Of a stretch of 57,174 bases of DNA, positions 1-57,174 are shown in pieces. Within the stretch, counting starts at the first letter, position 1. The number at the start of each line of letters is the position of its first letter. The stretch is from an uncultured Deinococcales bacterium. Its GTDB lineage: Bacteria; Deinococcota; Deinococci; Deinococcales; JAAFIG01. Both the position numbers and the translations under genes were made by a program. Under the pieces are notes generated by a model, which was given only the letters and a program-made list of their open reading frames with translations, did no database searches and was not told where the DNA came from. The stretch covers positions 1 to 57,174 of the forward strand of contig CAXTTL010000007.1 of the NCBI GenBank assembly GCA_964247135.1. The letters are read 5' to 3'.

Positions 1-1
1 A

Positions 2-748
2 ATGGACATTCGATTTGACCAAAAAACCGTGATCGTCACCGGCGCAGCGCACGGCTTTGGTCGCGCCATCGCCCATGCCTTCTCGAGCCTTGGAGCACAG
101 GTTTACGCCTGGGATTTGATCGCGGCAGAACTCGAGGAAACAAAATCAAACGCCGAAGGTCACTGCGAGGTCAAGGCTGTGGACGTGACGAATTTTGAAG
201 CCGTGCAAGATGCGGCTCGAGCCATTGGGCAGGTTGATATTCTGGTCAACAACGCGGGTGGTGTGCTGGGGCAGGTCGGCAAGCCGCTCGAGCTGGTCAC
301 GCCCAAAGAGTGGAACGACATTGTGGCGGTGAATTTGAGCGCCGCGTTTTACACGGCGCAAGCGGTTGCCCCTGGCATGAAAGCCGCAAACTGGGGGCGG
401 ATCATCAACATCTCGAGCGGTGCGGGTTTGGGTCCGAGTTTGACGGGCATTCAAGCCTATGCCAGCGCCAAGGCGGGACTGGTCAATTTAACGCGGCAAC
501 TCTGTCACGAACTGGGGACGTGGAACATCACGGTCAATTGTGTTGCGCCAGGTTTTGTACGATCCAACCCGACCACCGAAAAACAGTGGCAGTCTTACGG
601 CGCAGATGGGCAAAAGCAATTGCTCGAGAACATCGCCCTCAAGCGCCTCGGCACAGCTTCGGACATTGCGAACGGCGTGCTGTTTTTCGCTTCCGATATG
701 GCGGCTTGGGTCAGCGGTCAGGTGCTCAGTGTGGACGGTGGAAAATGA
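2..748 (+). CDS. SDR family NAD(P)-dependent oxidoreductase (FabG-like)
   Basis: TGAAHGFG Rossmann motif, NNAG, YASAK catalytic motif; stop overlaps next ATG (ATGA). Confidence 0.92.
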   Translation: MDIRFDQKTVIVTGAAHGFGRAIAHAFSSLGAQVYAWDLIAAELEETKSNAEGHCEVKAVDVTNFEAVQDAARAIGQVDILVNNAGGVLGQVGKPLELVTPKEWNDIVAVNLSAAFYTAQAVAPGMKAANWGRIINISSGAGLGPSLTGIQAYASAKAGLVNLTRQLCHELGTWNITVNCVAPGFVRSNPTTEKQWQSYGADGQKQLLENIALKRLGTASDIANGVLFFASDMAAWVSGQVLSVDGGK

Positions 749-2286
749 CAAATCTCGAGAAGTATCAGGATTTTAAGGAGTACATGGCGGGTGTCAGCGA
801 CATCCTCAACACGATGAACATTTTAAATTGGGATGCCCGCACCCAAATGCCGACGGGGAGCAATGTCTCTCGAGGGTTTCAACTTGCCACGCTCTCTGGG
901 TTGGCGCAAGAAAAACTGGTGGCAGACAAGTTGCAACAACTGCTGGGTGATGCCGAACGTGAAACCTCGAGCCTGAGTGATGATGGCATTGAACGTCGCA
1001 GCTTGCAGGCGGTGCGTGAAGCCAGCGAACTTTTTCGTCGCACCCCCGAACGCCTCACCCGCGAGATGGCGCAACTGCGTGCCGAAGCCCAGCCGTGTTG
1101 GGGAGAGGCTCGAGCCAAAAATGATTTTGCAATGTTTGCCCCGATGCTCGAGCGCACGATTGGGCTGCAACGCGAGTTGGCTGAAATCATTGGGTACAGC
1201 GAGCATCCTTACGACGCGCTGGTTTCCCTGTACGAACCTGACATGACGCGAGCCAAACTCCAGGATTTGTTCACGCAACTCAAAGCCCGAAGCCTGCCCT
1301 TGCTCGAGCGCATCCGCAATGCCGAGCCGCCCCGTGACGATTTTTTGAGGCGCGAATTTCCATTGGGGCAGCAACGGGCTTTTGGACTCGAGGTGGCACA
1401 AGCTTTTGGTTATGACCTCGAGCGCGGACGCTTGGACACGTCATTGCACCCCTTTGAAATTTCGTTCACCCGCGACGATGTACGCATCACCACGCGTTAC
1501 CAGACCAATTTTTTGACCATGAGCTTGTTTGGCACGTTGCACGAAACCGGTCACGCGCTTTACGAACAGGGCGTGTCGCCTGCACTGTCGCGCACGGCGC
1601 TGACCAGCGATTTGCCTGGGTTGTACGCGGTGGGCGGAGCCAGTTTTGGCACGCACGAAAGCCAATCCAGACTCTGGGAGAACCTGATTGGGCGCTCGAG
1701 GATGTTTTGGCAGCACTGGTATCCAAGGCTTAGTGAAACCTTCAAATCGCAACTCGAGGATGTTGACCTCGAGACCTTTCACCGCGCCGTCAACCGCGTC
1801 AGCCCAAGCCTGATTCGGGTCGAAGCCGATGAGATCACCTACAACTTGCACATCATGTTGCGCGTCGAACTCGAGGCGGCATTGATCGACGGGTCTTTGA
1901 GCGTGTCGGAATTGCCTGCCGCCTGGAATGCCAAAATGCGGGAGTACCTGGGCATCACGCCGCCCGATGATGCTCGAGGGGTGCTGCAAGACATTCACTG
2001 GTCGGCGGGTTATTTTGGTTCGTTTCCGACCTACACAATTGGCAACGTCATGGCATCACAATTTTTTGCGGCGGCTCGAGCGCAAGTTCCCAACCTGGAG
2101 GCTTCGCTCGAGGCTGGCGATTACGCGCCTTTGCGCGACTGGTTGACCGAGCACATCTACCAGCACGGCAGGCGTTTTCGTCCGCAAGAATTGTTACAAC
2201 GCGCCACGGGTCACGGACTCGATGCCGAACCTTACCTCGAATACCTCGAGACCAAATTTTCTGGCTTGTACCAACTCGAGGTTTGA
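745..2286 (+). CDS. Carboxypeptidase, M32 (Taq-like) family
   Basis: HPF, HETGH (HExxH), HESQSRLWEN, IRVEADE and GVLQDIHW motifs; true start taken as ATG 745, coupled to the SDR stop. Confidence 0.93.
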   Translation: MTNLEKYQDFKEYMAGVSDILNTMNILNWDARTQMPTGSNVSRGFQLATLSGLAQEKLVADKLQQLLGDAERETSSLSDDGIERRSLQAVREASELFRRTPERLTREMAQLRAEAQPCWGEARAKNDFAMFAPMLERTIGLQRELAEIIGYSEHPYDALVSLYEPDMTRAKLQDLFTQLKARSLPLLERIRNAEPPRDDFLRREFPLGQQRAFGLEVAQAFGYDLERGRLDTSLHPFEISFTRDDVRITTRYQTNFLTMSLFGTLHETGHALYEQGVSPALSRTALTSDLPGLYAVGGASFGTHESQSRLWENLIGRSRMFWQHWYPRLSETFKSQLEDVDLETFHRAVNRVSPSLIRVEADEITYNLHIMLRVELEAALIDGSLSVSELPAAWNAKMREYLGITPPDDARGVLQDIHWSAGYFGSFPTYTIGNVMASQFFAAARAQVPNLEASLEAGDYAPLRDWLTEHIYQHGRRFRPQELLQRATGHGLDAEPYLEYLETKFSGLYQLEV

Positions 2287-2295
2287 ACGCCGTGC

Positions 2296-3225: not shown

Positions 3226-3303
3226 TAAAGCACCTCAATCTTTGAAATCAAGCTACCCTTATCCTAACGCGACTCGAGCCACATATTTTCGGGAGGTATC
3301 AGC

Positions 3304-4098: not shown

Positions 4099-4361
4099 TT
4101 GGTCAAACGTCGTGGAAACGCTGACACGTTGAGGGCGACTGAGCCACAAACATGTTGCTCGAGATGCTTCTCTCAAATCCTTTTTGAACCAGTGGGTCAC
4201 GGGTTCAAATTCTGCACGAGGTATCTCGAGAAAAGCACTTGAACCAATTGAGGGTTTGTTAAGCGCGCCGTTACGAAACCCAAATATCAAAGTTCAAAAC
4301 CAGACCACAATGCCCACGGCTCAATTTCTCGACAGCAAAATTAAATCCCAGCAAACGGCGA

Positions 4362-4403
4362 ACTTAACTGGCTGACATTGACATGATGAACAACCAGTTA
4401 AGT
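4362..4403. promoter_or_regulatory. 10-bp inverted repeat (ACTTAACTGG-N22-CCAGTTAAGT) enclosing a TTGACA hexamer; candidate operator/promoter of the peptide ABC operon
   Basis: Arms at 4362-4371 and 4394-4403; TTGACA at 4378; 35 bp upstream of the SBP start. Confidence 0.45.
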
Positions 4404-4437
4404 AACACGATTGTGCAAATGAACCAGGGGGATTTTC

Positions 4438-5955: not shown

Positions 5956-6016
5956 TGTTGACGGGCGGTATTGCGGCGGGTTTTGACACGGTGCAATACT
6001 GCCCACCGAGACGATC

Positions 6017-8792: not shown

Positions 8793-8802
8793 GTCCTTTT
8801 AA

Positions 8803-8949
8803 GAGGGTGTTGATGAAGATTTCTCGAGCGAGGCTCTAAGCTATAAGCTTTAAGCTATAAGCCGTAAAGCACTGTTCCTTAGAGCTTATAGCCAAAACAA
8901 AATCAAACCCTGAGCACTTTTTTCCACTGTGGACTTCATAAACATCCTC
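8803..8949. mobile_element. 147-bp non-autonomous MITE with 16-bp imperfect TIRs and 3-bp TAA target duplication
   Basis: Left GAGGGTGTTGATGAAG (8803-8818) vs reverse complement of the right end GAGGATGTTTATGAAG (8934-8949), 14/16 identical; TAA at 8800-8802 and 8950-8952; internal GCT(A/C/T)TAA heptamer repeats. Confidence 0.7.
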
Positions 8950-9878
8950 TAAGTTTCGTAAATCGCAAAGCGGTTAATGAGGCGCAATCCAACAAAGGCA
9001 AGCACGCCAAAACCAACAAACAACAACACCGCCCCAGCCGAACTCCAACCGATGGCAAAACTGCCAAAACCGTATTCGTAAAGCAAATGGTAAATGTTGG
9101 TGGTGGCATTGCGCGGACCACCTTGGGTTAAGACATTGATGTAAGCAAAACTCCACTGCGAACCCAGCAAGACGGTCAGCATCGTGATAAACAAGACCGT
9201 GGGCGAGATCAGCGGCAAGGTGATGCGCCTGGTGATCTGCCATTCGCTCGCGCCGTCCAGCCGTGCCGCCTCGAGGTAACTGCGGTCCACGTTGGCGATG
9301 GCTGCCGAAAAAATCAGGGTCGAAAAACCGACCAACTTCCAACCGGTGATGAAGATGATCGTCCAAATGGCCCAGTTTTCGTCGCGCAAAAAGTTGATCG
9401 GCTCGAGTTTGAGGGCGGTAAAAACCTCGAAGGCAATGCCTTGCACGGGGTTGAGCAACCAACGCCAGATGATCGCAACCACCACCGGAGCCATGATCAT
9501 CGGCATAAAAATCAATGCTCGGTAGATATTTCTGGCGCGTCCCTGAATGCCCTCGGTGAAAATCGCCACCACCAACGGCAACACGACTGCCATCGGCACA
9601 ATTCCCAGAATATAAATGACGGTGTTCCAGAGTGCTTGATGCACCTCGGGAAGCTCGAGAATACGGCTAAAATTCTGCCAACCAACAAAGGTTTTGGGGC
9701 TGCTCGGCAAGAGATTCCACTCAAAAAATGACAACTCGAGCGTTTGAAACAGCGGTTTGTAAACCCAAATTCCAATGGTCAACAGGGCTGGAATCAGGTA
9801 CAGGTAAGGCGTCAGGGAAGCCCAAACATTTCGCCGTTTGGTGGTGGGCAATGCAAAACGCAACTGAGCTGATCGCAT
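8949..9878 (-). CDS. Carbohydrate/glycerol-phosphate ABC permease (UgpA/MalF-like)
   Basis: FVGWQNF, YLEAARLDGA, TQGGPRNAT. Confidence 0.9.
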   Translation of the reverse strand: MRSAQLRFALPTTKRRNVWASLTPYLYLIPALLTIGIWVYKPLFQTLELSFFEWNLLPSSPKTFVGWQNFSRILELPEVHQALWNTVIYILGIVPMAVVLPLVVAIFTEGIQGRARNIYRALIFMPMIMAPVVVAIIWRWLLNPVQGIAFEVFTALKLEPINFLRDENWAIWTIIFITGWKLVGFSTLIFSAAIANVDRSYLEAARLDGASEWQITRRITLPLISPTVLFITMLTVLLGSQWSFAYINVLTQGGPRNATTNIYHLLYEYGFGSFAIGWSSAGAVLLFVGFGVLAFVGLRLINRFAIYET

Positions 9879-9889
9879 GGGATTCCCTT

Positions 9890-10000
9890 GGGGCTTGTTG
9901 ATGAAGGCTTCTCAAGCAGGGCTATAAGCTATAAGCTCCAAGCAAAAACGTTGTTCCTTAGAGCTTATAGCTTGAAGCTTATAGCCAAAAGAACACCCTT
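9890..10000. repeat. Degenerate relative of the 8803-8949 element; heptamer-based (GCTATAA/TTATAGC) stem-loop
   Basis: TGTTGATGAAG..TTCTC.AGC, GCTATAAGCTATAAGCTC and TGTTCCTTAGAGCTTATAGC blocks shared with the first copy; AACACCCT at 9992-9999 matches the TIR core. Confidence 0.65.
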
Positions 10001-26863: not shown

Positions 26864-26917
26864 GAAGAACCAGACTCCAACTCGAGCGACCCGCACCACA
26901 CAAAATCCATGAAACCA

Positions 26918-26952
26918 GCAAACGGCGCTCGAGGCTCGAGGTCGCCGTTTGC
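26918..26952. terminator. Intergenic stem-loop after the SBP gene (mRNA stabiliser/partial terminator)
   Basis: GCAAACGGCG (26918-27) pairs with CGCCGTTTGC (26943-52); two CTCGAG between the arms. Confidence 0.5.
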
Positions 26953-26988
26953 GGGCACGATGGTCGGGTCAAGCACACGTTGAGGGCT

Positions 26989-28359
26989 TCACTTCACGGC
27001 TTGCTCGAGCACATTGTCCGCCCCAACGATCTTCTTGACCGCCTCGCTGTAGGCGTTCATGGCATCAAGCGGGCTGGCTTGGGCGCTGACCACGCGTTCG
27101 GTCATCAGTTGGATTTCGCTGCTGACCTTGGGGTAGCTGGCGAGTTTTGGGCGGATCACGGTCAACGGCAGCAAGGTTTTTGCCATCTGGCTCATGATGG
27201 GGTCTTGGGTGATCGGCACGTCCTTGCGGGCGCGAATGCGCGGCAGGATTTTCTGAAATTCGGTTTGCATGGCTTTGCTCGCCATGAACGACATCAGCTC
27301 CCACGCCTCTTTGGGGGCTTTGGTGTTTGGGTTGATGACAAAACCCGTGCCGCCCGAAGCCGAGACAAAGCTCTGACCGTTCACGCCCTTGCCTGGCATT
27401 TGGGCTGGCATTTTTGCCCATCCCACCAACTCGTCGCGTTTCTCGAGGGCAAAATCGCCGCCTTTGGGCAGCAAGATCGAGCGCCAGAAGTAATCGCCTT
27501 CGATCAGCATTGCCATTTTGGCGTCGCGGAAGGCTTCAAAGCTGCGGTCGCGTCCCTCCTGAATCAGTTGCAAGCGGGCATCGCCCAGTTTTTCATCGAC
27601 GTAAACGGTTTTGTAAAAGTTCAGGGCGTCGAGGATGCCTTGGTGCTTGACGATCCACTTGTCCTGGCTGTCGTCAAAGGGTTTGATGCCTGTGCCAAGC
27701 AAGAGCATGTACCAGCCTTGAAGCGTGGTCGCCTCGCCCATCGCGCTGCCGGCATTCAATTGAAGCGGCGTCACGTCTGGTAAAGCTTGCTTGATCTTGC
27801 GGGCGGTGTCCAACAAATCGTTCCAACTCTTGGGCTGCCAGGGCGTGCGGATGCCTGCTTTTTGAAAGAGGTCTTTGCGGTAGAAGATCATACGAACATC
27901 GGTGCCGTTGCCCACGCCGTAGACTTTGCCCTTGTAGCCCATCAATTCGCGCAAGCCTGCCGGAATCTGCCTCCAGCCTTCCCAACGGTTGACCTGGGCA
28001 CCCGCTACCTGATCGAGCGGTTTAAGCAGGTTCGAGGCGACAAATTCTGGCACCCAGAAACCATCGAACGCCATCACATCGGCGCCTTTGCCCACCTGAA
28101 GGTCGAGGGCGTATTGCTGTTTGAGGGCTTCGGCTTTGCCAGTAAATTCTTGCAGCACGACATTGACGCTTTTGCCTTCACTTTTTATTTTGGCGTTAAA
28201 CGCCGGCACAACGCTTTCCGAAAGCCATTTGAGGTCATTGCCAGAAACGCCGGCGATGGTGAGCTGGGTTTGGTTTTGGGCGCTGACAAACAGTCCAGAC
28301 GCAATGGCGAGTCCTGCGACCAGTCCAAATTTGAGGGCATGGCTGTTTTTCTTTTGCAT
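26989..28359 (-). CDS. Sugar ABC transporter substrate-binding protein
   Basis: Signal peptide; FYRKDLF, PKSWNDLL, AWELMSFM; GGAGG RBS. Confidence 0.9.
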   Translation of the reverse strand: MQKKNSHALKFGLVAGLAIASGLFVSAQNQTQLTIAGVSGNDLKWLSESVVPAFNAKIKSEGKSVNVVLQEFTGKAEALKQQYALDLQVGKGADVMAFDGFWVPEFVASNLLKPLDQVAGAQVNRWEGWRQIPAGLRELMGYKGKVYGVGNGTDVRMIFYRKDLFQKAGIRTPWQPKSWNDLLDTARKIKQALPDVTPLQLNAGSAMGEATTLQGWYMLLLGTGIKPFDDSQDKWIVKHQGILDALNFYKTVYVDEKLGDARLQLIQEGRDRSFEAFRDAKMAMLIEGDYFWRSILLPKGGDFALEKRDELVGWAKMPAQMPGKGVNGQSFVSASGGTGFVINPNTKAPKEAWELMSFMASKAMQTEFQKILPRIRARKDVPITQDPIMSQMAKTLLPLTVIRPKLASYPKVSSEIQLMTERVVSAQASPLDAMNAYSEAVKKIVGADNVLEQAVK

Positions 28360-28465
28360 GATGTTCCTCCGGTTTGACGCTCGAGGTCAGACAAGCCAAA
28401 TTAGACGAGAAATGTCAGTGTCGCATCAATCACAAAAGGTTGACAACCCAAGCTCAAGGCGTTTT

Positions 28466-45579: not shown

Positions 45580-46319
45580 TGCCGTTTCCACCCGCTTTAG
45601 AAGCCAGCCTCGAGGCTCGAGGGTACTTGAGAATCGCCCACCGTGGCGCACCGAGTTTTGGCATTGACAATTCCGACCTTGCAATTCTGGCGGCGCTCGA
45701 GCATCGACCCGATTTGATCGAAATTGACGTCCATTTTACCATTGACGGACAGTTGATCCTCTGGCATGACAACCACCTCGAGCACGATGGGCAAAAGCTC
45801 GAGATTGCCAAAACCAGCCTCGAGCGACTGCAAAAAGTTCGATTGTCAGATGGCTCGAGGCTGGTGACGCTCGAGGAAGCCATGAACATGGTGCGAGGGA
45901 CTTGCGGTTTGTTGGTTGACCTGAAAGCTGACGGCTTGGCGCAAGCCATCATCGATTGCACGCACAAAACCGAACTCGAGACGGTGGTGGTTTGCGGCGG
46001 TTATTTTGAAACCCTGAAAACCATCAAATCGCTCGAGCCGAAAATTGCGGTGTCTTACACCCCAGAATTTATTCCGTTTGGTCTGAATCCCAAAGTCAAA
46101 GCCGATTTTCTGGACGCATTGACGGTCTACTGGCGCACCGTCACGCCAGGTTTTTTGAAAGCCTCGAAAGCGCGTGGGATTCGGGTGATCGCCTGGACGG
46201 TGGACGAGGCGGTGCAAATGCGAAAGCTCATCAACATGGGTATTTCTGGCATCACCACCAACCGAATTGAACGGCTCTCGAAACTCAAGTTTTCTGATGC
46301 GGTGCTCGATGTTGGTTGA
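45579..46319 (+). CDS. Glycerophosphodiester phosphodiesterase
   Basis: IAHRG, EIDV, WHD, DLK, AWTVD, GITTN; ATG 45579 overlaps the previous TGA. Confidence 0.88.
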   Translation: MPFPPALEASLEARGYLRIAHRGAPSFGIDNSDLAILAALEHRPDLIEIDVHFTIDGQLILWHDNHLEHDGQKLEIAKTSLERLQKVRLSDGSRLVTLEEAMNMVRGTCGLLVDLKADGLAQAIIDCTHKTELETVVVCGGYFETLKTIKSLEPKIAVSYTPEFIPFGLNPKVKADFLDALTVYWRTVTPGFLKASKARGIRVIAWTVDEAVQMRKLINMGISGITTNRIERLSKLKFSDAVLDVG

Positions 46320-46387
46320 GAACAAATTCGGGTCATTCAACTCTCAATAAAAGTTGAGGTACACCCGAACTGGAGCGCATTACTTCC

Positions 46388-46422
46388 CAGTCACGCTCCA
46401 GTGACGCTCTCCTTTCTATACT
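46388..46422 (+). promoter_or_regulatory. 11-bp direct repeat CAGT(C/G)ACGCTC x2 followed by TATACT -10-like hexamer
   Basis: Units 46388-46398 and 46399-46409; TATACT at 46417; upstream of the 46451 lipoprotein. Confidence 0.45.
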
Positions 46423-46450
46423 TGCCCTCGAGTTTTTGAGAGGAGCGAGC

Positions 46451-47359
46451 ATGATACGATCATTACGAATCTCGAGGGTTGGGAAGTTGAGTGTGGTATT
46501 GGCGTTGCTGGCGGGTTTGAGCGCCTGCCCCAGCGAGGGATCGAACCTGGGTTCAAACCCGCAAAAACCGCCATTGACTGGAAGTTGCGACAATCCAACG
46601 CCAAACCAACTGACCCCAGAAGCCTTAAAGGTCAAAGGTTATTTCGTGAACGCCTGCGGGCAACCCATTCCTGGCGCTCGAGTGATCGTGCGCAATGCGT
46701 TTGCTTCCTCCACGGACACGCCGTTTACGGTTGTTCCCAATGCGGAGGGTTTTTATTCGCAAAACTTGCCGCCCGCCTCGGCGAACGCTGCGGCGTTTCA
46801 AGCCATCGGCGAGGTTGGTAAGGTTTATGACGGCACGGATTACTGCCTGTGGGTGCGACCATCTGACGGTTCAAGCTCGTTTTCAGGCAAGGACGGCGCG
46901 GTGCAAAATCTGGTGTGGCGCGTCGCTGGCGAACGTCCCGATTCCAAACCGGGAGATCGGCGCTACTACGGCGGCAGCCTGTGGCTCTCCCCAAACCTCA
47001 GTGACACGTTTTCTGCGCCGCCAGAATCTGTATTGAAACTCTTGCTCAGACCCACCGCGCCACTGATTGATGGCACGCAGGGACAAGATGTGGAAATACA
47101 AATTCCTTGGGGACAACGCTATCAAACCTCGAGCACCCCAGCACTGAACGGAATTCCACTGGGCAAGTACCAAGTCTTTGCCGCCATTCAACTCCCGAAT
47201 GACCCCGCGCTCTACAGGGTTTATGTCAACTTGGACGATGGCAAGAACAATCCATACGCGGAATCCACGGTCGGCAAGTTTGCGGGTGACCGTTCGGGCG
47301 CGGCGCTCACTTGCGCGGGAACAGCAATGATGCAAATTGGACTGAGTTTTAGCAAATAA
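46451..47359 (+). CDS. Lipoprotein with carboxypeptidase-regulatory-like (beta-sandwich) domain
   Basis: AGGAG RBS; lipobox LSAC; VKGYFVNACGQPIPGARVIV. Confidence 0.6.
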   Translation: MIRSLRISRVGKLSVVLALLAGLSACPSEGSNLGSNPQKPPLTGSCDNPTPNQLTPEALKVKGYFVNACGQPIPGARVIVRNAFASSTDTPFTVVPNAEGFYSQNLPPASANAAAFQAIGEVGKVYDGTDYCLWVRPSDGSSSFSGKDGAVQNLVWRVAGERPDSKPGDRRYYGGSLWLSPNLSDTFSAPPESVLKLLLRPTAPLIDGTQGQDVEIQIPWGQRYQTSSTPALNGIPLGKYQVFAAIQLPNDPALYRVYVNLDDGKNNPYAESTVGKFAGDRSGAALTCAGTAMMQIGLSFSK

Positions 47360-47622
47360 ATGTTGGAGGCTCGAGCATGAAATACAAACTGGTTTTCGCA
47401 AAAGAATCAGGAATGCGTTTTTGCAAGCAAAAAACCAACGGGGATTTTCAGTGCATCTCGAGCGGCACAACGGGCGGTTCATCCGTGGGTTTTGTGGCTC
47501 GAGTGCGCGGCAATTGATTTTGAAACTGGAGGAAGGCATGAACAAAATTGGAAGGGCAGGAATTGTTTTGTTGGTTGAGGCGCTTATAGGGTGCAACCCA
47601 ACAAAGCTCGAGGAAAGGACAG

Positions 47623-47654
47623 TGTAATACACATCCTTTGTAATACACATCCTT
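47623..47654 (+). repeat. Tandem duplication, 2 x 16 bp (TGTAATACACATCCTT)
   Basis: Units 47623-47638 and 47639-47654. Confidence 0.9.
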
Positions 47655-47735
47655 TCGCAGGGTTTCAGTCGAACTAAAGTGCGTCCTCTCAACCGGAAAC
47701 CCACAAAAAATGCTGTTGTTCTCAAGGAGGTAGCA

Positions 47736-49628
47736 ATGAAGAAGTGGTTTTTTCTGATCATGGTTGTGCTTGGTTTATTAAGCGCTTGCAACACAGACAA
47801 TCCGCCATCCGCTCCCAGCAATCTGAAAACCATTGCCAACGCGAGTAGCATCAGCCTCGTCTGGGATGCCTCAACTGGCGCAACCAGTTACACCATCGAA
47901 CGCAAAGTTGACACTGGAATCTTCAGTGCGCTCACAACCGTAAGCGCCATCCAATACAACGATACCGACGTGACCATAGGAACTGCTTACGCCTACCGCG
48001 TCCTGGCGAGCAATTCCAATGGAGCGAGTGCCTGGGCAGAAACCCCAACCGTGAGCCTCGCACCCACGGTGACCTATCAAGCCAACCCGCTGACCGTTCA
48101 ACCACAATACGCGACTGCTGGGGCAACCAGCGCAGAGATCGGACCAGAGGGCGGCACATTGAGCCTGGTGGATGCCAAAGGAACACGCTTTACCCTGAAG
48201 ATCAACCCCGACACGCTGTATTTCAAAACCACCTTCACCATGACACCTTTGACTTCTGCAAGCAATGCCCCAGGTGAGGTGGGCGTTCTGGGCGGTGTGC
48301 GAATCGAGCCAGAGGATGTCATTTTCCCAGACAGCGCGACATTGCAAATCGTACCGACCAGCGCCCCCGAAACCAGCAAATCCAGAATCGGCTTTGAGTT
48401 TTACGGGCAGGGAACTTCATTTCACTTGCGTCCGCTCGAGGATAACGATGCCAATAGCGATCCGCTCGAGACCACCTTGGCGTTATGGGATGGTGGAACG
48501 TTCGGGCTGATTGACTTAAATACAGAACAAGCAACAGTCCAAGCCAATCAGCGCTTTCCAAGCAGTCCGTTTGATGCCTTTGCCCAATTTTCAGCTTTGG
48601 AACAAATACAAAATACCAAAACCAAGACCACACGATTGGACAGAGCGGATAGGGTTTTCTTTGCTAAAGCCCTCTACGATGGCACACTCAACGGCATGTT
48701 TGAGCACAGTATTCAGGATTACCTGAGCGAGGCTGTGAGTCAGAGGGCAACAATTGCTAAGGCGGAAGCAAAATTTAAAGAATGGGTGGCTAACCTGAAG
48801 AAATGGAAATTGATTGATGATCCCGAAATTGCGCCATTGGTCGGGAAGGGCTGGATTCTTCTGGCAAAAGCTTACCTCGAGTCGGTTCGCAGATCAGTGA
48901 ACAGTTGCTTTGATGAAAAGAAACCAGGGCAAGGGTTTGTGGCAAATTATTGGGTCAAACTGGCAAGAAAAAAAATTGGCGATCCAATACCTATAACCAT
49001 CCAAGCTGCCATGAGCAGCGACCTAACAGCGCTCCTCGCCGAGGCGGAAAAGTGTTTTACTTTCACGCTCGAGTTTGATTCACATTTGGCAGCGGTTGCA
49101 CCGAACAAATTATTACTTGACATCGAAGTCAACGCAATTGGGAATTTGAGTTTCGATCAAGCAGTCATTCCACTCGAGCCTAAACATTTCAACATTGACG
49201 TGCTTGGGAAGTGCGGGAAAGTTGACAGCATTACTCACCATTTAGGTGATCCTGGTCGGTACACAATGACTGTCACGGTGTCAGATGAAGTTGATCTCAA
49301 GGAAGAGCGCCAAAACAACTTTAGCGCCATTGTTTTGAAGTACAATCCTGGCAATACACTCCAAGGTTATAGACTTTTGGATACGTGCCAATCGCTCCCT
49401 CCAATAGTTGTTCCACCAGAAACACCACTTTGGTTTGCATATTTCTATTTACTCCATGAAAACGAATACACTACTTCAACAGCATTATTTAGCATCAATA
49501 CCTGGAGTGGCGAAATTGGGTTTGGTGATGCTTTCGCAGCTAAAACTTATACTGAAAAACTTTCCATCGATGGCACTGAAGTCAGCGGTACAACAACCAT
49601 TCGTATCAAACACACGCCGCAACGTTAA
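47736..49628 (+). CDS. Lipoprotein with fibronectin type III domain and uncharacterised C-terminal region
   Basis: AAGGAGG RBS; lipobox LSAC; PSAPSNL..ISLVW..YTIER..YAYRVLASN FN3 pattern; EIGPEGGTL ZU5-like start. Confidence 0.72.
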   Translation: MKKWFFLIMVVLGLLSACNTDNPPSAPSNLKTIANASSISLVWDASTGATSYTIERKVDTGIFSALTTVSAIQYNDTDVTIGTAYAYRVLASNSNGASAWAETPTVSLAPTVTYQANPLTVQPQYATAGATSAEIGPEGGTLSLVDAKGTRFTLKINPDTLYFKTTFTMTPLTSASNAPGEVGVLGGVRIEPEDVIFPDSATLQIVPTSAPETSKSRIGFEFYGQGTSFHLRPLEDNDANSDPLETTLALWDGGTFGLIDLNTEQATVQANQRFPSSPFDAFAQFSALEQIQNTKTKTTRLDRADRVFFAKALYDGTLNGMFEHSIQDYLSEAVSQRATIAKAEAKFKEWVANLKKWKLIDDPEIAPLVGKGWILLAKAYLESVRRSVNSCFDEKKPGQGFVANYWVKLARKKIGDPIPITIQAAMSSDLTALLAEAEKCFTFTLEFDSHLAAVAPNKLLLDIEVNAIGNLSFDQAVIPLEPKHFNIDVLGKCGKVDSITHHLGDPGRYTMTVTVSDEVDLKEERQNNFSAIVLKYNPGNTLQGYRLLDTCQSLPPIVVPPETPLWFAYFYLLHENEYTTSTALFSINTWSGEIGFGDAFAAKTYTEKLSIDGTEVSGTTTIRIKHTPQR

Positions 49629-49641
49629 ATTTTAGGAGGTC

Positions 49642-50808
49642 ATGATGAAAAAACAAGTCGCATTTTTTGGCGTCATCGCACTGCTGGGGCTTGCCCTCGC
49701 GCAGGCAACCTACAGCTTCACCATCAACGGTAAACCCACCAAACTCGAGACGCTCGAGAACAACGGCAAGGTCTTTGTCGAGGCGCAAAGTTTTGCCAAG
49801 GCACTTGGGGCAAGTGTGACGTTTGACAAAACCAAACGCAGTTTTGTGATTGTCTCGAGCGGCGGGAACGCGGTAGCTGATGTGCAAGGCACGAGTCAAC
49901 AGGCGGGTGGCGAGGGTGTGCTCGGCAAGACCTACTCCCTGGGCAAGACCACCAACGCCCTCAACTTCACACTGACCAGCCTCGAGTTTAGCCTTGCGCC
50001 TGTGACCATGGACAATTACGTTTACGCCCCAAAAGCGAACGAGAAGCTCCTGGTGATGCACTACACCGTGCAAAACCCGCAAAAGAGCGAGCTGGGTGTG
50101 GCGTGGGATGCCTTCAAATTCACGGCAGTGGACTCAAAAGACATCAACATCGTGTTCAACAATTACGTGGCTCGAGACGGCACAACCAGTGTGTTTAACG
50201 GGCGACTGAAACCCGCACAGAAAATCAATTTGTTGGCAGCGTTTGCCGTGCCAGCTTCGGGCGCAATTCCAAAATTGATTGTTCAACGCGATTTGAACTC
50301 GAGCGTGCTGCGTTTTGATTTGCGCGGCAAGGTCAAACCACTGACAGCACCGTTTGCCGACCCAAGCGATGCCAGCGGCTCGAGTGTATTGACCGAAGTT
50401 CCCGCGCAGACTGGCACGTTTTACCCAGGCTCGAGTTTGGGCATCAAGCTCGAGGGCGTGGCGTTTTCTGACGAGAAGATGGACGGTAAAGTTCCAGAGG
50501 ATGGCAAGCGTTATTTGATTGCCACGTTCAGCATCAAAAACATTCTGGGTGCGGGTGCGAATCCCGTCGGTTTCTCTTACAGCAGTTTCAAGTTTGAACT
50601 GCGCGATGCCGGGGGCGACAAACAGGTTTTCAACGGTTATCTGATCAAAGCCACCCGCGACGAACACGCCGACGGCAGCCTGAAATCTGGTGAGGAGTAC
50701 CGCTTTCGGGTTTATTTCATGCTGCCAAAAGATTTGACGGCAAAAACCCTGGCGGTCTCTGAGGGTGAATCTCGAGCGTATGCCTTCGATGTCTCGAGTG
50801 CCAAGTAA
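49642..50808 (+). CDS. Secreted protein with two similar beta-sandwich (DUF4352-like) domains
   Basis: AGGAGG RBS, signal peptide; internal repeats FKFTAVDSKD..VFNNYV..LKPAQ and FKFELRDAGG..VFNGYL..LKSGE. Confidence 0.6.
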   Translation: MMKKQVAFFGVIALLGLALAQATYSFTINGKPTKLETLENNGKVFVEAQSFAKALGASVTFDKTKRSFVIVSSGGNAVADVQGTSQQAGGEGVLGKTYSLGKTTNALNFTLTSLEFSLAPVTMDNYVYAPKANEKLLVMHYTVQNPQKSELGVAWDAFKFTAVDSKDINIVFNNYVARDGTTSVFNGRLKPAQKINLLAAFAVPASGAIPKLIVQRDLNSSVLRFDLRGKVKPLTAPFADPSDASGSSVLTEVPAQTGTFYPGSSLGIKLEGVAFSDEKMDGKVPEDGKRYLIATFSIKNILGAGANPVGFSYSSFKFELRDAGGDKQVFNGYLIKATRDEHADGSLKSGEEYRFRVYFMLPKDLTAKTLAVSEGESRAYAFDVSSAK

Positions 50809-50826
50809 ATTTTCAGATTGAAAGCC

Positions 50827-52194
50827 TTATTGCAAAACCGTGTAAATCGGATTGGAGAGCAGCAGCGTGTTCTGCCATTCGCGCCCAACGCCATCTTGAC
50901 TTTGTGCGTCTTTGGCAAACACCTCGAGTCGATAATAACCAACTCGAGGTTCGGTATCTACAAACTCGAGTTTGATCTCTTCACTGGCGGAAATGTCTTG
51001 GTGGGCGTGATAAAAACCGTTTTTCATGACGATCACTCGAGCCGGAAATTGAAGTTTCCCAATTCGCGCCTCGAGCTTCACGGTTTCGCTCACCTCGAGT
51101 TCCTCGCCCATGCCCGCATGGTGCTCGCCTGAGGTTGCCGTAAACTCGAGCGTCGGTCCGAGGGTCACATATGCCCGACCCGCCCTCACGCCGTCCAGAA
51201 TCGCCTCAGACCGCAAGGCGCTCGAGTTGACGACTGTAAAGACCTGTCCGAGCCTGTGACGACCTTTGAAGGCATCGTGCGAGTCCGTTCCCGCCACGCC
51301 CGTAATCCGGTGTCCAGCCCGCAGCAAGCCATCCCAAAGCGTCAACATGGCGGTGTTGCTCGAGCCTTCCTGATGGTGGTAAACCTCGATGGCATCGCAC
51401 AGAGTCCAGTCAAATTCGTGATAGCGCCAGCCCAGATCGAGCGCGAACGGATGGTTGACGCAGACCAAACCACCCTGGTCTTTGGTGGCTCGAGCCGCGT
51501 CGTTGATGCTCCAGGTTTCGGCTTCGTCCACAAACGGGTTAACCCATTGTTCCAAACCGTGAAAGTTCGCGTGACCGCGATGCCCCGTCATCTCGAGGCT
51601 GGTGATGAGGCAGAGTTTCTCGTCTGAGAGTGATTTGAATTCTGCCCAAGCCGCCGTGGTGAAATGATCGGTCAGCGCCAGAAAATCCAGCCCGTAACGC
51701 CGCGCCGCCGCGACCAGTTCGGCAGTGCTCGAGCGACCGTCGGAGTGATGCGTGTGCGAATGCAACTCGCCGCGATACCAACCTGGCGTGTCGTTGCCGT
51801 TTTCAGCGGCGACAAAAGGCTCGAGTTTCAAACCCGTTTCCAAACCAGCTTCAACCGTGAGGGTGTAATCGACCATGTAAGCGGTGCGCTCGAGGTCAAG
51901 AAATGCCAGCCACTTTCCAGCTTCAATCTCGCCCGCGATTGCGCCGAGCGAACCGAAACCTTCACCAAACTCGAGCGTCTCTTCAATCAAACCCACCGCG
52001 CCTGGCAGCATCCTCGAGCCGCGATAACCGTTCGGTCCAAAGACGGAAAGGTACAACTGGCAGATGCCAGGTTTGTCGTAACGCAAACAAACCCGCAATT
52101 GTTTGATGCCTTCGGGCACGTCAAAGCTGTGACGCAAATACGCGGCTGTGGTTTCGGGCGAGACTGTGCCAGTGACCTCGAGTAACTTTTGCAT
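50827..52194 (-). CDS. PHP-domain metallohydrolase (CehA/McbA-like), paralog of 22793-24073
   Basis: WYRGELHSHTHHSDG, GLDFLALTDH, NHP, GTDSH, LSNPIY. Confidence 0.85.
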   Translation of the reverse strand: MQKLLEVTGTVSPETTAAYLRHSFDVPEGIKQLRVCLRYDKPGICQLYLSVFGPNGYRGSRMLPGAVGLIEETLEFGEGFGSLGAIAGEIEAGKWLAFLDLERTAYMVDYTLTVEAGLETGLKLEPFVAAENGNDTPGWYRGELHSHTHHSDGRSSTAELVAAARRYGLDFLALTDHFTTAAWAEFKSLSDEKLCLITSLEMTGHRGHANFHGLEQWVNPFVDEAETWSINDAARATKDQGGLVCVNHPFALDLGWRYHEFDWTLCDAIEVYHHQEGSSNTAMLTLWDGLLRAGHRITGVAGTDSHDAFKGRHRLGQVFTVVNSSALRSEAILDGVRAGRAYVTLGPTLEFTATSGEHHAGMGEELEVSETVKLEARIGKLQFPARVIVMKNGFYHAHQDISASEEIKLEFVDTEPRVGYYRLEVFAKDAQSQDGVGREWQNTLLLSNPIYTVLQ

Positions 52195-52296
52195 GAGGCA
52201 ATTCTTTTATGGTTTCGTCTTCGCCTTGTCAGCCACATTGGAAACGCACAGGGGAGCGACTCCCTGTGCGCCAAAAAAGGGGAATACCCGAGGGGT

Positions 52297-53559: not shown

Positions 53560-53956
53560 TGAAACCTCCGTAACTCGAGACGAATTTAAAGCTCGAGTGT
53601 CTGGGTTTTGCAATTCACAAAAAGCTGACAAAATCACCTGACGAAATCTTGAAACTCGAGTCGCAACATTGGCGCATGGCAAATTATGGCGCAAACTATT
53701 TACGCGAGGCGACCCGTTTGTTCCTTTCCAACTCGAGCTTCAAAACCCCAGCCGAGGCGGTGGAGGCTGGCATCCGCAGTGTTTCGGAATGGTGCGATTG
53801 CCTGAACCGCGTTCGCGTGGCATACGGTTTAAACGAAGGCAGTAACCGTCAAACCCGAGATGCCGTCTTTAATGATGGCGAAATGGCAGCCTAAAAACTT
53901 GAGGTGAAATCGGTATGAATCATCGTCGCCTGACTTAAGCCGCTTAAGGTTCGGGT

Positions 53957-55444: not shown

Positions 55445-55458
55445 ACCAATTTTTCGAG

Positions 55459-55500
55459 CGCCAGCGGTTGGAGTTTTCCGACCGCTGGCGTTTTTGTTTT
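55459..55500 (+). terminator. Rho-independent terminator
   Basis: CGCCAGCGGTTGGA-GTTT-TCCGACCGCTGGCG followed by TTTTTGTTTT. Confidence 0.85.
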
Positions 55501-55520
55501 GGTCCGCTTGAGAATCAAAA

Positions 55521-55558
55521 CTGTCACGCGCCTGTCAACCCCTGTCAGCGAGTGGTCA
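55521..55558 (+). promoter_or_regulatory. Pho-box-like array CTGTCA x3 plus GGTCA
   Basis: CTGTCA at 55521, 55532, 55542 and GGTCA at 55554 (11/10/11-bp period); matches the PhoB half-site CTGTCA. Confidence 0.65.
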
Positions 55559-55644
55559 GTCACCCATTGATGACAAAACCGCACTAGGGTTGCCCTCGAG
55601 TCTCTTTTACAAATCAAGACGGCTTGGAAATCAATGGGGGTTGT

Positions 55645-57174
55645 ATGCGCATCACACGGAAACGGATTGTTTCTCGAGTCGGTCGTTCTGTCTCTCGCGC
55701 CAGGCTGGTTCGTACAGGCTTGGTGGCATTAGCCTTCGCTGGAATGGCAGTGATCGCGCAGCAAGTCGCGGTGCGCCTGGTGGGTCGTCAAGCCGACGGT
55801 TCGGTGCTCTTGACCACCAATCAAAGCATCACCCCTGCCGGCAAGCAAGTCGAGTTCGATGGTCGCGCCAACGCGATGGCGCTCTCGCCCGACAAGAAAA
55901 CCGCCGCCGTGCTGAATGGCAACGCCCAGGCGATTGTATTGATTGACCTCGAGACGGGCAAGGTCAAACAAATTTTTGACAAGGTTGGCGGCAGCGCCTC
56001 TTATGACGGCATTCTGTACTCGAGCGACGGCAAAAAACTTTACGCCTCGCAGACGGGTCGAATCGTGATCGCCAATGTGCAAACCGATGGAACTTTGGCA
56101 CTCGAGAAACTGATCGAAGTGCCGCGCACCACCGCGTACTTTGCGGGCACCAGCCCCAGCAGCTACCCAGGGGGCATGGCACTCTCGCAGGATCAAAAAA
56201 CGCTTTACGTGGCACTCTCGAGGAACAACGCGCTCGGGGTGCTCGACCTAGGCAGCAACCGTTGGACGGCTCAAATTCCCGTGGGCAATGCGCCGCACAC
56301 GGTCATCGTTGATGGAAACACCGCCTATGTCAGCAATCAGGGCGGACGACCCGCCAAAGCTGGCGACAACACCGTCAACTCGAGCGGCACAAACATCGTG
56401 GCGGACAAGACCTCCGGTTTTGCCAACGCGGGTACGGTGTCGGTGGTGAACCTCGAGACCTTGCGCCAAACAAACAGCATCAAGGTCGGTCATCAACCCA
56501 CGGCGTTGCTGCTGGATGGGCAACGTCTGTTTGTCACCAACTCCAACAGCGACACGGTTTCGGTGATTGACACCCAAGGCAACAAGCTCGAGCGCACGAT
56601 TGCGGTCAAACCATTTGCGGGGGCAAAACTCGGCAGCAGCCCGAATGGACTGGCATTGATCGGCGAGAATCGTCTGGCGGTGTCGCTGGGGCGCAACAAT
56701 GCGGTTGCGATTTACACCGTGCCAACCAAGCCAAGCGAAGCCGTGCTGTTTGAAGGTCTTGTGCCTGTCGGATTCTACCCGACCGCCGTCGCCAGCGACG
56801 GCACACACCTGCTGGCACTCAATGGTCGCGGTGTGGGTGCGCTCGGACCAGAGCGTGTGGGCGGACCCGACCCCGCCACCAACAAGAAAGCCAAAAGCGT
56901 GTACTCGGTGGTCTCGAGCCTTTCGATCATTGACCACCCAAGTCTCGAGCAACTGAAGAATTACACCGCGCAAGTCCTTCAAAACAACGCCTGGAACGCG
57001 ATCCCGTCCGAAAAACGTGGCGACTCGAACGCTGCGCCCGTCGCCATTCCAAACCGTCTGGGCGAACCGAGTCTGTTCAAGCACGTGTTTTACATCATCA
57101 AAGAAAACCGCACCTACGACCAACTGCTGGGCGACGTGAAGGAGGGCAACGGCGACCCGAACATCGTGCAATTT
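55645..57174 (+). CDS. YVTN beta-propeller / phosphoesterase (alkaline-phosphatase-like) protein, truncated by window end
   Basis: Not in the ORF track. Manual translation of the ends gives MRITRKRIVS...TNQSITPAG and ...FKHVFYIIKENRTYDQLLGD; internal IPVGNAP, IKVGHQP, LFVTNSNSDTVSVID propeller blades. Confidence 0.85.
   Translation, partial: MRITRKRIVSRVGRSVSRARLVRTGLVALAFAGMAVIAQQVAVRLVGRQADGSVLLTTNQSITPAGKQVEFDGRANAMALSPDKKTAAVLNGNAQAIVLIDLETGKVKQIFDKVGGSASYDGILYSSDGKKLYASQTGRIVIANVQTDGTLALEKLIEVPRTTAYFAGTSPSSYPGGMALSQDQKTLYVALSRNNALGVLDLGSNRWTAQIPVGNAPHTVIVDGNTAYVSNQGGRPAKAGDNTVNSSGTNIVADKTSGFANAGTVSVVNLETLRQTNSIKVGHQPTALLLDGQRLFVTNSNSDTVSVIDTQGNKLERTIAVKPFAGAKLGSSPNGLALIGENRLAVSLGRNNAVAIYTVPTKPSEAVLFEGLVPVGFYPTAVASDGTHLLALNGRGVGALGPERVGGPDPATNKKAKSVYSVVSSLSIIDHPSLEQLKNYTAQVLQNNAWNAIPSEKRGDSNAAPVAIPNRLGEPSLFKHVFYIIKENRTYDQLLGDVKEGNGDPNIVQF

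What the first reader, a model, noticed from the sequence alone, without database searches (positions are those of the whole stretch)
1..57174. CTCGAG behaves as a highly iterated palindrome (HIP-like) throughout the window
Seen: I counted at least 23 CTCGAG in positions 1-2280, about 1 per 100 bp. A hexamer at ~55% GC is expected roughly once per 3-3.5 kb, so this is about a 30-fold excess. It occurs in all three codon frames (Leu-Glu, x-Ser-Ser/Arg, Ala-Arg-Ala) and in intergenic DNA, so amino-acid usage alone does not explain it. Known: cyanobacterial HIP1 (GCGATCGC) is a comparable phenomenon linked to DNA methyltransferases, and CTCGAG is the XhoI/PaeR7I site containing the TaqI core TCGA. 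Inference: a methylation-coupled repair or mutational ratchet, or a DNA-binding, uptake or recombination system, is creating or retaining this motif in a non-cyanobacterial lineage. I cannot tell whether it has already been reported for this lineage.
Basis: partly seen in the sequence, partly recalled or inferred. Interest (0 to 1): 0.8.

Follow-up and report, generated by a model that had tools for sequence, protein, structure and literature searches.

The report
Hyper-abundant CTCGAG palindrome in Deinococcales
In this uncultured relative of Deinococcus the six-letter palindrome CTCGAG occurs about every 150 bases in genes and between them, is kept in place by evolution and has even changed protein sequences, much like the still unexplained HIP1 word of cyanobacteria but with no matching methylase in sight.

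Summary
The window has 347 CTCGAG against 12 expected. The whole 5.09-Mb genome has 33,925, one per 150 bp and 25-35x expectation. All 18 of 18 other genomes of the same family carry 4.3-6.8 per kb.

Density is equal in coding and non-coding DNA. All three frames are enriched 6-15x after a synonymous-codon shuffle. Sites are the best-conserved hexamer class against a congener: 78.5% against 45%. Synonymous bases inside sites change 5-6x more slowly. Leu-Glu is the most over-used dipeptide, 2.36x.

So it is HIP-like. Vsr was found in 0 of 19 genomes. One-off variants are not depleted. The five complete small methylase genes found sit beside nucleases of other families, four of whose recalled sites are strongly avoided. 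None of the five methylases tested is family-wide.

My best reading is a weak, uniform DNA-level fixation bias (scaled S about 3), probably from an uptake or recombination process. That mechanism is unproven.

This scan has already reported the same phenomenon on other DNA of this genome and lineage. I found no published report.

The parts
1..57174 (.). 347 dispersed copies of the palindromic hexamer CTCGAG, 6.1 per kb. None is part of a longer repeat unit.
   Evidence: 347 against 12.0 expected. (frames 202/39/64, uncalled DNA 42). Genome-wide (flanks near background, no palindromic extension).
1..2280 (.).
131..136 (+). Example of a frame-0 site (CTC GAG = Leu-Glu) in ORF 2-748.
   Evidence: Sequence read; ORF.
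82..87 (+). Example of a frame-2 site (xxC TCG AGx = Ser-Ser) in ORF 2-748.
216..221 (+). Example of a frame-1 site (GCT CGA GCC = Ala-Arg-Ala) in ORF 2-748.
4158..4230 (.). Two sites (4158-4163 and 4225-4230) in the 339-bp spacer 4099-4437. These are examples of truly intergenic copies.
26928..26940 (.). Two sites 7 bp apart (26928 and 26935) in the spacer 26900-26988. This is the closest spacing seen; sites never overlap.
27448..28379 (.). The longest site-free stretch of the window: 938 bp between site starts 27442 and 28380, inside the solute-binding-protein gene 26989-28359.

Best explanation
SHOWN. CTCGAG is a true highly iterated palindrome of a whole Deinococcales family. It is a bare 6-bp word with no longer repeat around it. 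It sits at about 1 per 150 bp in coding and non-coding DNA alike and is kept by a force that acts on the DNA word itself.

INFERRED (size of the force). Two independent measures agree on a weak, roughly uniform fixation bias per site, with scaled S of about 3.
- Sites outnumber their one-mismatch neighbours 27 times more than base composition predicts, so ln 27 = 3.3.
- Synonymous bases inside sites are replaced at 0.16-0.22 of the rate of the same codons elsewhere, which gives S of about 2.5-2.9.
Gains and losses are roughly balanced, so the system looks close to equilibrium rather than like a running ratchet.

INFERRED (mechanism; my commitment). The features are an exact 6-bp two-fold symmetric unit, the same density per length of DNA whatever it encodes, scarcity in low-GC accessory islands, and many weakly favoured sites rather than a few essential ones. 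Together these point to a chromosome-wide DNA transaction that reads duplex CTCGAG.

The most likely transaction is a bias in uptake and/or recombination of own-species DNA during natural transformation. This would be a molecular drive like DUS/USS, and it is what is now proposed for HIP1. Methylation by a methylase not yet identified may or may not be involved.
For: Abundance. Family-wide presence, 18 of 18 other genomes at 4.3-6.8 per kb.

Coding 6.65 per kb against uncalled DNA 6.66 per kb, and all frames enriched after the synonymous shuffle.

Bare hexamer: flanks are near background, with a weak G at -1 and C at +1 (39%), and there is no palindromic extension.

Conservation against a congener, over 309 kb aligned at about 85% identity:
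- 1681 of 2141 sites are kept (78.5%), against 45% for other hexamers.
- This holds in every frame and in uncalled DNA (73% against 41%).
- CTCGAG ranks 1 of 1453 hexamer classes.
- Per-base identity is 0.93-0.95 inside the site against 0.79-0.88 in the flanks, with sharp edges.

Synonymous third positions: CTC is kept in 1027 of 1110 cases in sites against 731 of 1120 elsewhere; GAG in 1064 of 1113 against 956 of 1306.

Across genera, 35-52% of window sites are kept against 18-20% for other hexamers. Polarised changes give 31 gain-like and 29 loss events.

Neighbour counts used for S.

Proteome effect:
- Leu-Glu O/E is 2.36, the top dipeptide, while Glu-Leu is 1.01.
- 77.9% of Leu-Glu is written CTCGAG, against 5% expected from codon usage.
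- At aligned orthologous positions this genome has 248 Leu-Glu against 132, 228 against 156 and 281 against 220 in three outgroups.

There are 48 site-free gaps of 1.2 kb or more, against 11 expected. Most of the 25 longest have 27-45% GC, and the ones sampled encode accessory-type genes.

ComEC is present in 5 of 5 family genomes searched. This is only a necessary condition, because 10 of 14 controls also ring.

HIP1 raises transformation efficiency in cyanobacteria (abstract) and correlates with DNA-transfer genes (abstract).
Against: No uptake, binding or methylation was or could be measured. The transformation link rests on analogy with HIP1 and on my recalled knowledge that Thermus and Deinococcus are naturally competent.

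A 6-bp word carries little information for a receptor. Known uptake sequences are longer and not palindromic (recalled).

Conservation and S of about 3 fit direct selection or biased gene conversion just as well.

Sites avoid each other below about 60 bp (0.39x at 6-12 bp in spacers). A drive model does not predict this.

The S estimates ignore multiple hits and assume site independence. The gene calls are my own ORF heuristic, and the 'intergenic' class includes some missed genes.
Confidence: 0.4

Rival explanations
1. Direct selection for a structural role. CTCGAG would be the binding word of a lineage-specific nucleoid or chromosome-organising protein, or of some other genome-wide reader. 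Each site would add a small benefit up to saturation.
For: Density is the same per length of DNA whatever it encodes. The unit is an exact 6-bp symmetric word. Sites are conserved in position. Short-range exclusion below about 60 bp occurs in spacers as well as genes, as a protein footprint or saturation would give. Xu et al. argued for selection and a nucleoid role for HIP1 (abstract).
Against: No candidate protein was identified. The pair correlation shows no preferred spacing or periodicity up to 700 bp. The 10-90 kb periodicity reported for HIP1 could not be tested on these short contigs.
Confidence: 0.25
2. Methylation-coupled mismatch repair. A CTCGAG methylase would mark sites, and a methylation-dependent short-patch repair would convert near-sites into sites and restore mutated ones.
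For: CTCGAG is a classical type II target. Orphan CTCGAG methylases of both the m6A and m4C kind exist in giant viruses (passages). In cyanobacteria each alternate HIP comes with a methylase for that sequence (abstract). The genome is 84% complete. A partial N6_N4 methylase at a contig end (G000:C4:1-397) and a divergent methylase-like gene (C4:28577-29977) have no assigned target.
Against: Vsr was found in 0 of 19 family genomes, with the control ringing in 3. MutH was found in 0 of 5.

The transition neighbours that such repair should consume are enriched 1.2-1.8x, not depleted.

The five complete small methylases pair with NgoPII-, Eco29kI-, PvuII-, SacI- and MvaI/BcnI-family nucleases.

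No Eco57I/TaqI-type methylase of PaeR7I size is present in this genome.

Orthologues of the five methylases tested occur in only 2-6 other family genomes.

The closed family genome G011 has no PF01555 methylase. Two motif-rich genomes gave no match to either C5 methylase query.
Confidence: 0.15
3. A by-product of codon, dicodon or dipeptide usage, or of the massive avoidance of other palindromes.
For: Frame 0 (Leu-Glu) holds 63% of the coding sites. In the high-GC outgroups G021 and G025 the milder excess is almost all in frame 0, with O/E 1.8-1.9. The maximal-order Markov O/E is only 1.24; this is trivial, because the pentamers already contain the word.
Against: Frames 1 and 2 are enriched 15x and 12x after the synonymous shuffle. 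Uncalled DNA has the same density at 46.5% GC. Short true spacers of the window hold 6.6 per kb. CTC and GAG are minority codons outside the word, at 15% and 33%. Synonymous bases are constrained only inside the word.
Confidence: 0.02
4. Copies of a small mobile or REP-like repeat that carries CTCGAG.
For: The genome does hold short dispersed repeats, for example window 8800-8957 and 9893-9990.
Against: Base frequencies at all 24 flanking positions examined lie between 0.18 and 0.39. No 10-mer holds more than 1.4% of the sites. There is no palindromic extension. 82% of the sites lie inside genes, in all frames.
Confidence: 0.02

Closest known systems
HIP1 (GCGATCGC) and the alternate HIPs of cyanobacteria (Elhai 2015, PMC4390886; Xu, Lawrence and Durand 2018, PMC5861425)
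   Same: It is a short GC-rich palindrome, tens of times over-represented (HIP1 is 15-300x). It occurs inside and between reading frames and is conserved between genomes beyond background. It is not explained as a peptide or RNA motif and is lineage-wide (abstracts; here).
   Different: The phylum is different (Deinococcota). The word has 6 bp, not 8, and is denser: 6.7 per kb, or 4% of all bases. No cognate orphan methylase was found, whereas HIPs are reported to come with one. The pattern of one-off variants does not fit a repair model. No short-range periodicity was seen, and the 10-90 kb periodicity of HIP1 was not testable here.
DNA uptake sequences of Neisseria (DUS) and Pasteurellaceae (USS)
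   Same: They are genome-wide over-represented short words. They are present in genes and spacers, conserved, thought to be kept by many weak per-site biases, and rare in foreign DNA. This description is recalled knowledge; no call tested it.
   Different: DUS and USS are 9-12 bp and not palindromic, occur at about 1 per kb, and have measured uptake bias. Here nothing was measured; only ComEC was found.
XhoI/PaeR7I-type restriction-modification and orphan CTCGAG methylases
   Same: The recognition word is the same 6-bp CTCGAG. Orphan methylases for it exist in two chemical types (passages).
   Different: Hosts of restriction systems avoid their own sites, whereas here the site is 25x enriched. 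No XhoI-family nuclease was found (the control rang nowhere, so this is weak evidence). No PaeR7I-sized TaqI-like methylase was found in this genome.
Very-short-patch repair shaping CCWGG and its neighbours in E. coli (Dcm/Vsr; recalled)
   Same: It offers a repair process that could enrich a methylated palindrome.
   Different: Vsr was not found in 19 of 19 genomes. The predicted depleted neighbours are enriched. The size of the effect is an order of magnitude larger than in E. coli (recalled).

Membership tests
Highly iterated palindromes (HIP1-type) | A short palindrome over-represented at least about 15-fold genome-wide. | tested here: met
   33,925 copies; O/E 24.8, 35.2 and 14.4 for zero-, first- and second-order models. 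In the window, 347 against 12.
Highly iterated palindromes (HIP1-type) | Present in all reading frames and between genes; not a peptide motif. | tested here: met
   O/E 5.8, 15.3 and 11.6 after the synonymous shuffle. Coding 6.65 per kb against uncalled DNA 6.66 per kb. Window spacers hold 6.6 per kb.
Highly iterated palindromes (HIP1-type) | Sites conserved between related genomes beyond background. | tested here: met
   78.5% against 45%; rank 1 of 1453 classes. Synonymous bases change 5-6x more slowly. Across genera, 35-52% against 18-20%.
Highly iterated palindromes (HIP1-type) | A methyltransferase specific for the word is present in the genome (Elhai 2015, abstract). | tested here: inconclusive
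   Twelve methylase-like genes were found. Five sit beside nucleases of other families and one beside a weak NotI-like match. One is type I, two are MmeI-like and one is an SNF2 fusion. Two are unassigned. None of the five tested is family-wide. The genome is 84% complete, and specificity cannot be read from sequence.
Highly iterated palindromes (HIP1-type) | Periodic distribution at 10-90 kb (Xu et al. 2018, abstract). | not testable with these tools
Up to 700 bp the pair correlation is flat beyond 60 bp.
Highly iterated palindromes (HIP1-type) | Membership of the cyanobacterial lineage, or homology of the system. | tested here: not met
   The closest named record is a Deinococcales MAG. CGATCG occurs only 47 times. 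This is therefore an analogue, not a homologue.
DNA uptake sequences (DUS/USS) | Measured preferential uptake of DNA carrying the word. | not testable with these tools
   Needs transformation assays.
DNA uptake sequences (DUS/USS) | DNA-uptake machinery is present. | tested here: met
   The ComEC domain PF03772 was found in 5 of 5 family genomes. This is weak evidence, because 10 of 14 controls also ring.
Resident XhoI-type restriction-modification | The cognate nuclease and methylase are present and the site is avoided. | tested here: not met
   The site is 25x enriched. PF04555 gave no hit, but its control was silent.
Vsr-type short-patch repair enrichment | A Vsr nuclease is present and T:G-derived neighbours are depleted. 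| tested here: not met
   Vsr was found in 0 of 19 genomes. CTTGAG/CTCAAG is at 1.21x and TTCGAG/CTCGAA at 1.81x.
REP/MITE-type dispersed repeats | The word is embedded in a longer conserved unit. | tested here: not met

The most novel reading that the evidence does not exclude
CTCGAG would be the first highly iterated palindrome maintained without a dedicated methyltransferase. It would be the recognition word of a lineage-specific, methylation-independent reader, such as an uptake or recombination 'self' signal or a nucleoid protein.
Probability: 0.25. Interest if true: 0.85.

Novelty: new variant of a known kind. Interest (0 to 1): 0.72.

Why it matters
HIP1 has been a puzzle for three decades and has been studied in only one phylum. 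An independent case gives a second system in which to test the rival ideas of methylation-linked repair, nucleoid structure, and uptake or recombination signal. This case differs in three useful ways:
- The word is shorter and denser.
- It comes with a clear gradient: a full form in one family, an intermediate form in a near-complete genome of a neighbouring family, and nothing but codon usage in Thermus-like genomes.
- No cognate methylase has been found so far.

It also has practical uses. The word is a sharp compositional marker for binning this lineage and for spotting recently acquired DNA. XhoI would cut such genomes to about 150-bp pieces unless the sites are methylated.

Tried and rejected
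1. Codon or dipeptide artefact. Rejected.

2. Longer repeat unit or hairpin centre. Rejected. There is a 2x peak of sites in the first 30 bp after stop codons (12.4 per kb), but I found no stem built around the word.

3. Periodic spacing. There is none up to 700 bp, only exclusion below about 60 bp.

4. Search for a cognate methylase through Pfam families in the genome and family, protein searches and neighbour annotation. No candidate emerged. Not tested for family-wide distribution: the C189, C207 and C4:1-397 methylases, the two MmeI-like genes, the SNF2 fusion and the type I system.

5. XhoI nuclease family PF04555. No hit, but the control rang nowhere, so this is uninformative.

6. Viral contigs with clustered CTCGAG. 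Of the 80 of 120 loci that I examined, the dense ones are high-GC contigs that are also rich in GAGCTC, which indicates codon usage. No phage of this lineage was identified.

7. Metagenome scan for close strains. It found only 8 distant homologues (42-60% identity), with 0-2.3 sites per kb. These serve only as a negative control.

8. Sequencing runs. There was no RNA holder. All holders are contigs with small word shares (0.18 or less), holding relatives about 5-10% diverged. The table of differences is cut to 40 of 1,625 rows, so no test of sites against flanks could be made.

9. The 16S rRNA gene is not in the assembly.

10. Polarised gain and loss could be done only for the window (60 events). 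The outgroups are 25-29% diverged, so 'gain' includes old losses.

11. I could not see which part.

12. Supplementary files of the HIP papers were not open, so any non-cyanobacterial tallies in them were not seen.

Full report
OBSERVATION

The window holds 347 CTCGAG. In 100 dinucleotide-preserving shuffles the mean was 12.0 +/- 3.3 and the largest count was 20. Window GC is 0.52-0.575.

The window is contig C7 of a 5.09-Mb, 386-contig assembly. It is 84% complete with 1.8% contamination and has no 16S gene. In that genome CTCGAG occurs 33,925 times, once per 150 bp. It is the commonest hexamer by more than two-fold. O/E is 24.8 (zero order), 35.2 (first order) and 14.4 (second order). Every contig carries at least 2.5 sites per kb, with a median of 6.8.

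No gene caller is on hand, so I called genes with an ORF and codon-score heuristic: 4,057 genes covering 82% of the genome.
- Sites in genes number 17,392 in frame 0 (CTC GAG), 3,958 in frame 1 (xCT CGA Gxx) and 6,384 in frame 2 (xxC TCG AGx).
- Shuffling synonymous codons within each gene predicts 3,018, 259 and 551. The excess is therefore 5.8x, 15.3x and 11.6x.
- Permuting whole codons gives an excess of 14.8x, 27.6x and 21.5x.
- Density is 6.65 per kb in called genes and 6.66 per kb in the rest, although the rest has only 46.5% GC.

The 'rest' includes some genes that my caller missed. In the window, 18 of the 42 'intergenic' sites lie in such ORFs. The other 24 lie in 3,660 bp of short spacers, which is 6.6 per kb (counted by hand). 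A dicodon-preserving control would absorb the frame-0 signal by construction. The maximal-order Markov ratio of 1.24 is likewise uninformative, because the pentamers already contain the word.

ANATOMY

The unit is the bare hexamer.
- Flanking positions stay near background. There is only a weak G at -1 and C at +1 (39% and 38%) and a weak A at -3 and T at +3 (37%).
- The commonest 10-mer holds 478 of 33,925 sites.
- The flanks are no more self-complementary than chance, in genes or outside.
- Sites never overlap. They avoid each other at short range: 0.39x at 6-12 bp and about 0.9x up to 60 bp in spacers, and more strongly in genes.
- Beyond 60 bp the pair correlation is flat up to 700 bp.
- Density is even along genes, with a two-fold peak in the first 30 bp after stop codons.
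- There are 48 site-free gaps of 1.2 kb or more, against 11 expected. Most of the 25 longest have 27-45% GC. The gaps I sampled encode proteins of no known family, a STAND-like ATPase and an O-antigen ligase. That pattern fits recently acquired DNA.

PHYLOGENETIC EXTENT

The closest named record (87% protein identity) is a 'MAG: Deinococcales bacterium'.
- All 18 of 18 other genomes of the same family, in five genera, hold 4.3-6.8 sites per kb. Nearly all of them lack the reversed word GAGCTC.
- Samples of two of them, one a closed genome, repeat the whole pattern: all frames are enriched, uncalled DNA holds 6.2-6.5 per kb, and Leu-Glu O/E is 2.2.
- In two high-GC genomes of another family of the order the milder excess is nearly all in frame 0 (157 of 164 and 244 of 259 coding sites), with O/E of only 1.8-1.9. 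That is codon usage.
- One genome of a third family (G019, 58% GC, near complete) is intermediate. Frame O/E is 1.2, 9.5 and 4.7, uncalled DNA holds 1.87 per kb, and GAGCTC occurs once in 100 kb.
- Deinococcus-sized genomes of another family are depleted, at 0.03-0.1 per kb.

EVOLUTIONARY BEHAVIOUR

I aligned 309 kb with the closest congener, at about 85% identity.
- 1,681 of 2,141 sites are identical in the congener (78.5%), against 45% for all other hexamers.
- By class, the figures for sites and for other hexamers are 0.83 and 0.45 (frame 0), 0.69 and 0.45 (frame 1), 0.75 and 0.45 (frame 2), and 0.73 and 0.41 (uncalled DNA).
- CTCGAG is the most conserved of 1,453 hexamer classes; their mean is 0.43 with sd 0.09.
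- Per-base identity is 0.93-0.95 inside the word and 0.79-0.88 immediately outside, so the edges are sharp.
- The third base of CTC is kept in 92.5% of cases inside the word and 65.3% elsewhere. The third base of GAG is kept in 95.6% against 73.2%. The constraint therefore acts on DNA, not on protein.
- In the window, 35-52% of sites are kept in four other genera, against 18-20% for other hexamers.
- Polarised differences between the two congeners give 31 gain-like and 29 loss events. These are small numbers and the outgroups are distant.

PROTEOME EFFECT

- Leu-Glu is the most over-represented dipeptide (O/E 2.36), while Glu-Leu is at 1.01.
- 77.9% of Leu-Glu pairs are written CTCGAG. Only 5% is expected, because CTC makes up 15% of Leu codons and GAG 33% of Glu codons elsewhere.
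- At aligned orthologous positions this genome has 248, 228 and 281 Leu-Glu where three outgroups have 132, 156 and 220. The outgroup residues are mostly one substitution away: LD, LR, LK, VE, IE and AE.

SIZE OF THE FORCE (my inference)

Against a background with the sites masked, the ratio of sites to all one-mismatch neighbours is 33,925 to 22,412. The expected ratio is 1,290 to 22,844 (sums by hand). The excess is 26.8-fold, so S = ln 26.8 = 3.3 under a mutation, selection and drift equilibrium.

The relative loss rate at synonymous bases is 0.216 and 0.164. Under S/(e^S - 1) this gives S of 2.5-2.9. The agreement of the two estimates, together with balanced turnover, suggests many weakly favoured sites at equilibrium.

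TESTS OF THE METHYLATION-REPAIR IDEA

1. None of the nine neighbour classes shows the depletion a ratchet predicts. The three transition classes are at 1.21x, 1.55x and 1.81x.

2. Vsr was found in 0 of 19 family genomes, with the control ringing in 3. MutH was found in 0 of 5.

3. The genome has twelve methylase-like genes. Each of the five complete small ones lies beside a restriction nuclease of another family:
- a C5 methylase with an NgoPII-family nuclease,
- a C5 methylase with an Eco29kI-family nuclease,
- an N6_N4 methylase with a PvuII nuclease,
- an N6_N4 methylase with an MvaI/BcnI-family nuclease,
- a D12 methylase with a SacI-family nuclease.
A sixth, partial N6_N4 methylase lies beside a weak NotI-like match.

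The sites I recall for these enzymes are GGCC, CCGCGG, CAGCTG, CCSGG or CCWGG, and GAGCTC. Four of them are among the most avoided words: O/E 0.016, 0.006, 0.011 and 0.000. CCSGG is at 0.066, while CCWGG is at 1.15.

The remaining genes are a type I system, two MmeI-like enzymes, an Eco57I-SNF2 fusion, a fragment at a contig end, and a divergent gene that carries stop codons in two relatives.

4. Orthologues of the five methylases I tested occur in only 2-6 other family genomes. The closed genome G011 has no PF01555 methylase. G008 and G015 gave no match to either C5 methylase query. Family-level scans show a patchwork of cassettes.

A cognate methylase may still hide in the missing 16% of the genome or in an unrecognised family.

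READING

The word behaves like the cyanobacterial HIPs in abundance, frame independence and conservation (abstracts). It differs in four ways: it is in another phylum, it is shorter and denser, it lacks a visible cognate methylase, and its variant pattern does not fit the repair model.

The force acts per length of DNA on an exact symmetric 6-bp unit and is weak and uniform. I therefore favour a chromosome-wide transaction. The most likely one is a bias in uptake or recombination of own-species DNA, as now proposed for HIP1 (abstracts). ComEC is present in 5 of 5 family genomes, which is only a necessary condition. Direct selection for a nucleoid-type reader is nearly as likely. The short-range exclusion fits that reading better.

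NOVELTY

Six searches of the held library found no report of CTCGAG hyper-abundance in Deinococcota or any other bacterium:
- iterated palindrome plus CTCGAG, 0 papers;
-;
-;
- iterated palindrome plus Deinococc, 2 papers, both on cyanobacteria;
-.

Orphan CTCGAG methylases are known in giant viruses (passages). This scan has itself reported the same phenomenon before, once on another piece of this genome and at least seven times on sister genomes. One of those notes is marked as having partly failed a later check, and I could not see which part.

- the quantitative estimate of S;
- the constraint at synonymous bases;
- the pairing of the small methylases with nucleases of other families;
- the absence of Vsr and MutH;
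- the intermediate state in G019.

Noticed in passing
G000:C14:36041-37936; C178:2930-4752; C36:19236-21059; C320:1061-2985; C189:4077-5632; C207:3-1650: There are five complete type II restriction-modification pairs, with NgoPII-, Eco29kI-, PvuII-, SacI- and MvaI/BcnI-family nucleases, and one weak NotI-like pair. The sites I recall for them are almost absent from the genome: GGCC 380, CCGCGG 11, CAGCTG 15, GAGCTC 0, and CCSGG 856 against 12,889 expected.
   Followed up: yes
G000:C14:35074-39157 against L170 (G005:C6:76500-81000): The spacer between the nucleoside hydrolase and Sua5 genes holds an NgoPII-type cassette in this genome. In the congener it holds a D12 methylase plus an unknown 397-aa gene. 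This looks like a hot spot where restriction cassettes are swapped.
   Followed up: partly
window 8800-8957 and 9893-9990: These are short intergenic stretches that match many other contigs of this genome and of G004 at 71-90% identity. They are dispersed small repeats.
   Followed up: no
G000:C13:11899-14536, C70:14174-16418, C13:4764-6745, C20:7992-9673: Islands with 27-30% GC in a 53% GC genome, without a single CTCGAG. They encode proteins of no known family and a STAND-like ATPase, and probably represent recent acquisitions.
   Followed up: partly
L294-L298 (G019:C4:1000001-1100000): A near-complete genome of a neighbouring family shows a weak form of the phenomenon: 1.56 sites per kb, frames 1 and 2 enriched 9.5x and 4.7x, spacers at 1.87 per kb and GAGCTC nearly absent. 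It is a possible intermediate or early stage and perhaps a cultivable model.
   Followed up: partly
G000:C4:1-397 and L332 (G010:C13:2-379): Two assemblies from different genera break at about the same residue of an orthologous N6_N4 methylase gene (66% identity). The rest of the gene may be repeated or variable. Its target is unknown.
   Followed up: partly
G000:C4:28577-29977; L315, L316: A divergent methylase-like gene (44% GC) whose orthologues in G005 and G012 carry in-frame stop codons.
   Followed up: partly
window 46282-50841: This stretch has no counterpart in the congener G005, although both flanks are collinear. One public-run contig joins 47390 to 49634. It is a variable segment that holds the 649-aa ORF 47679-49628, which has no Pfam match.
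   Followed up: no
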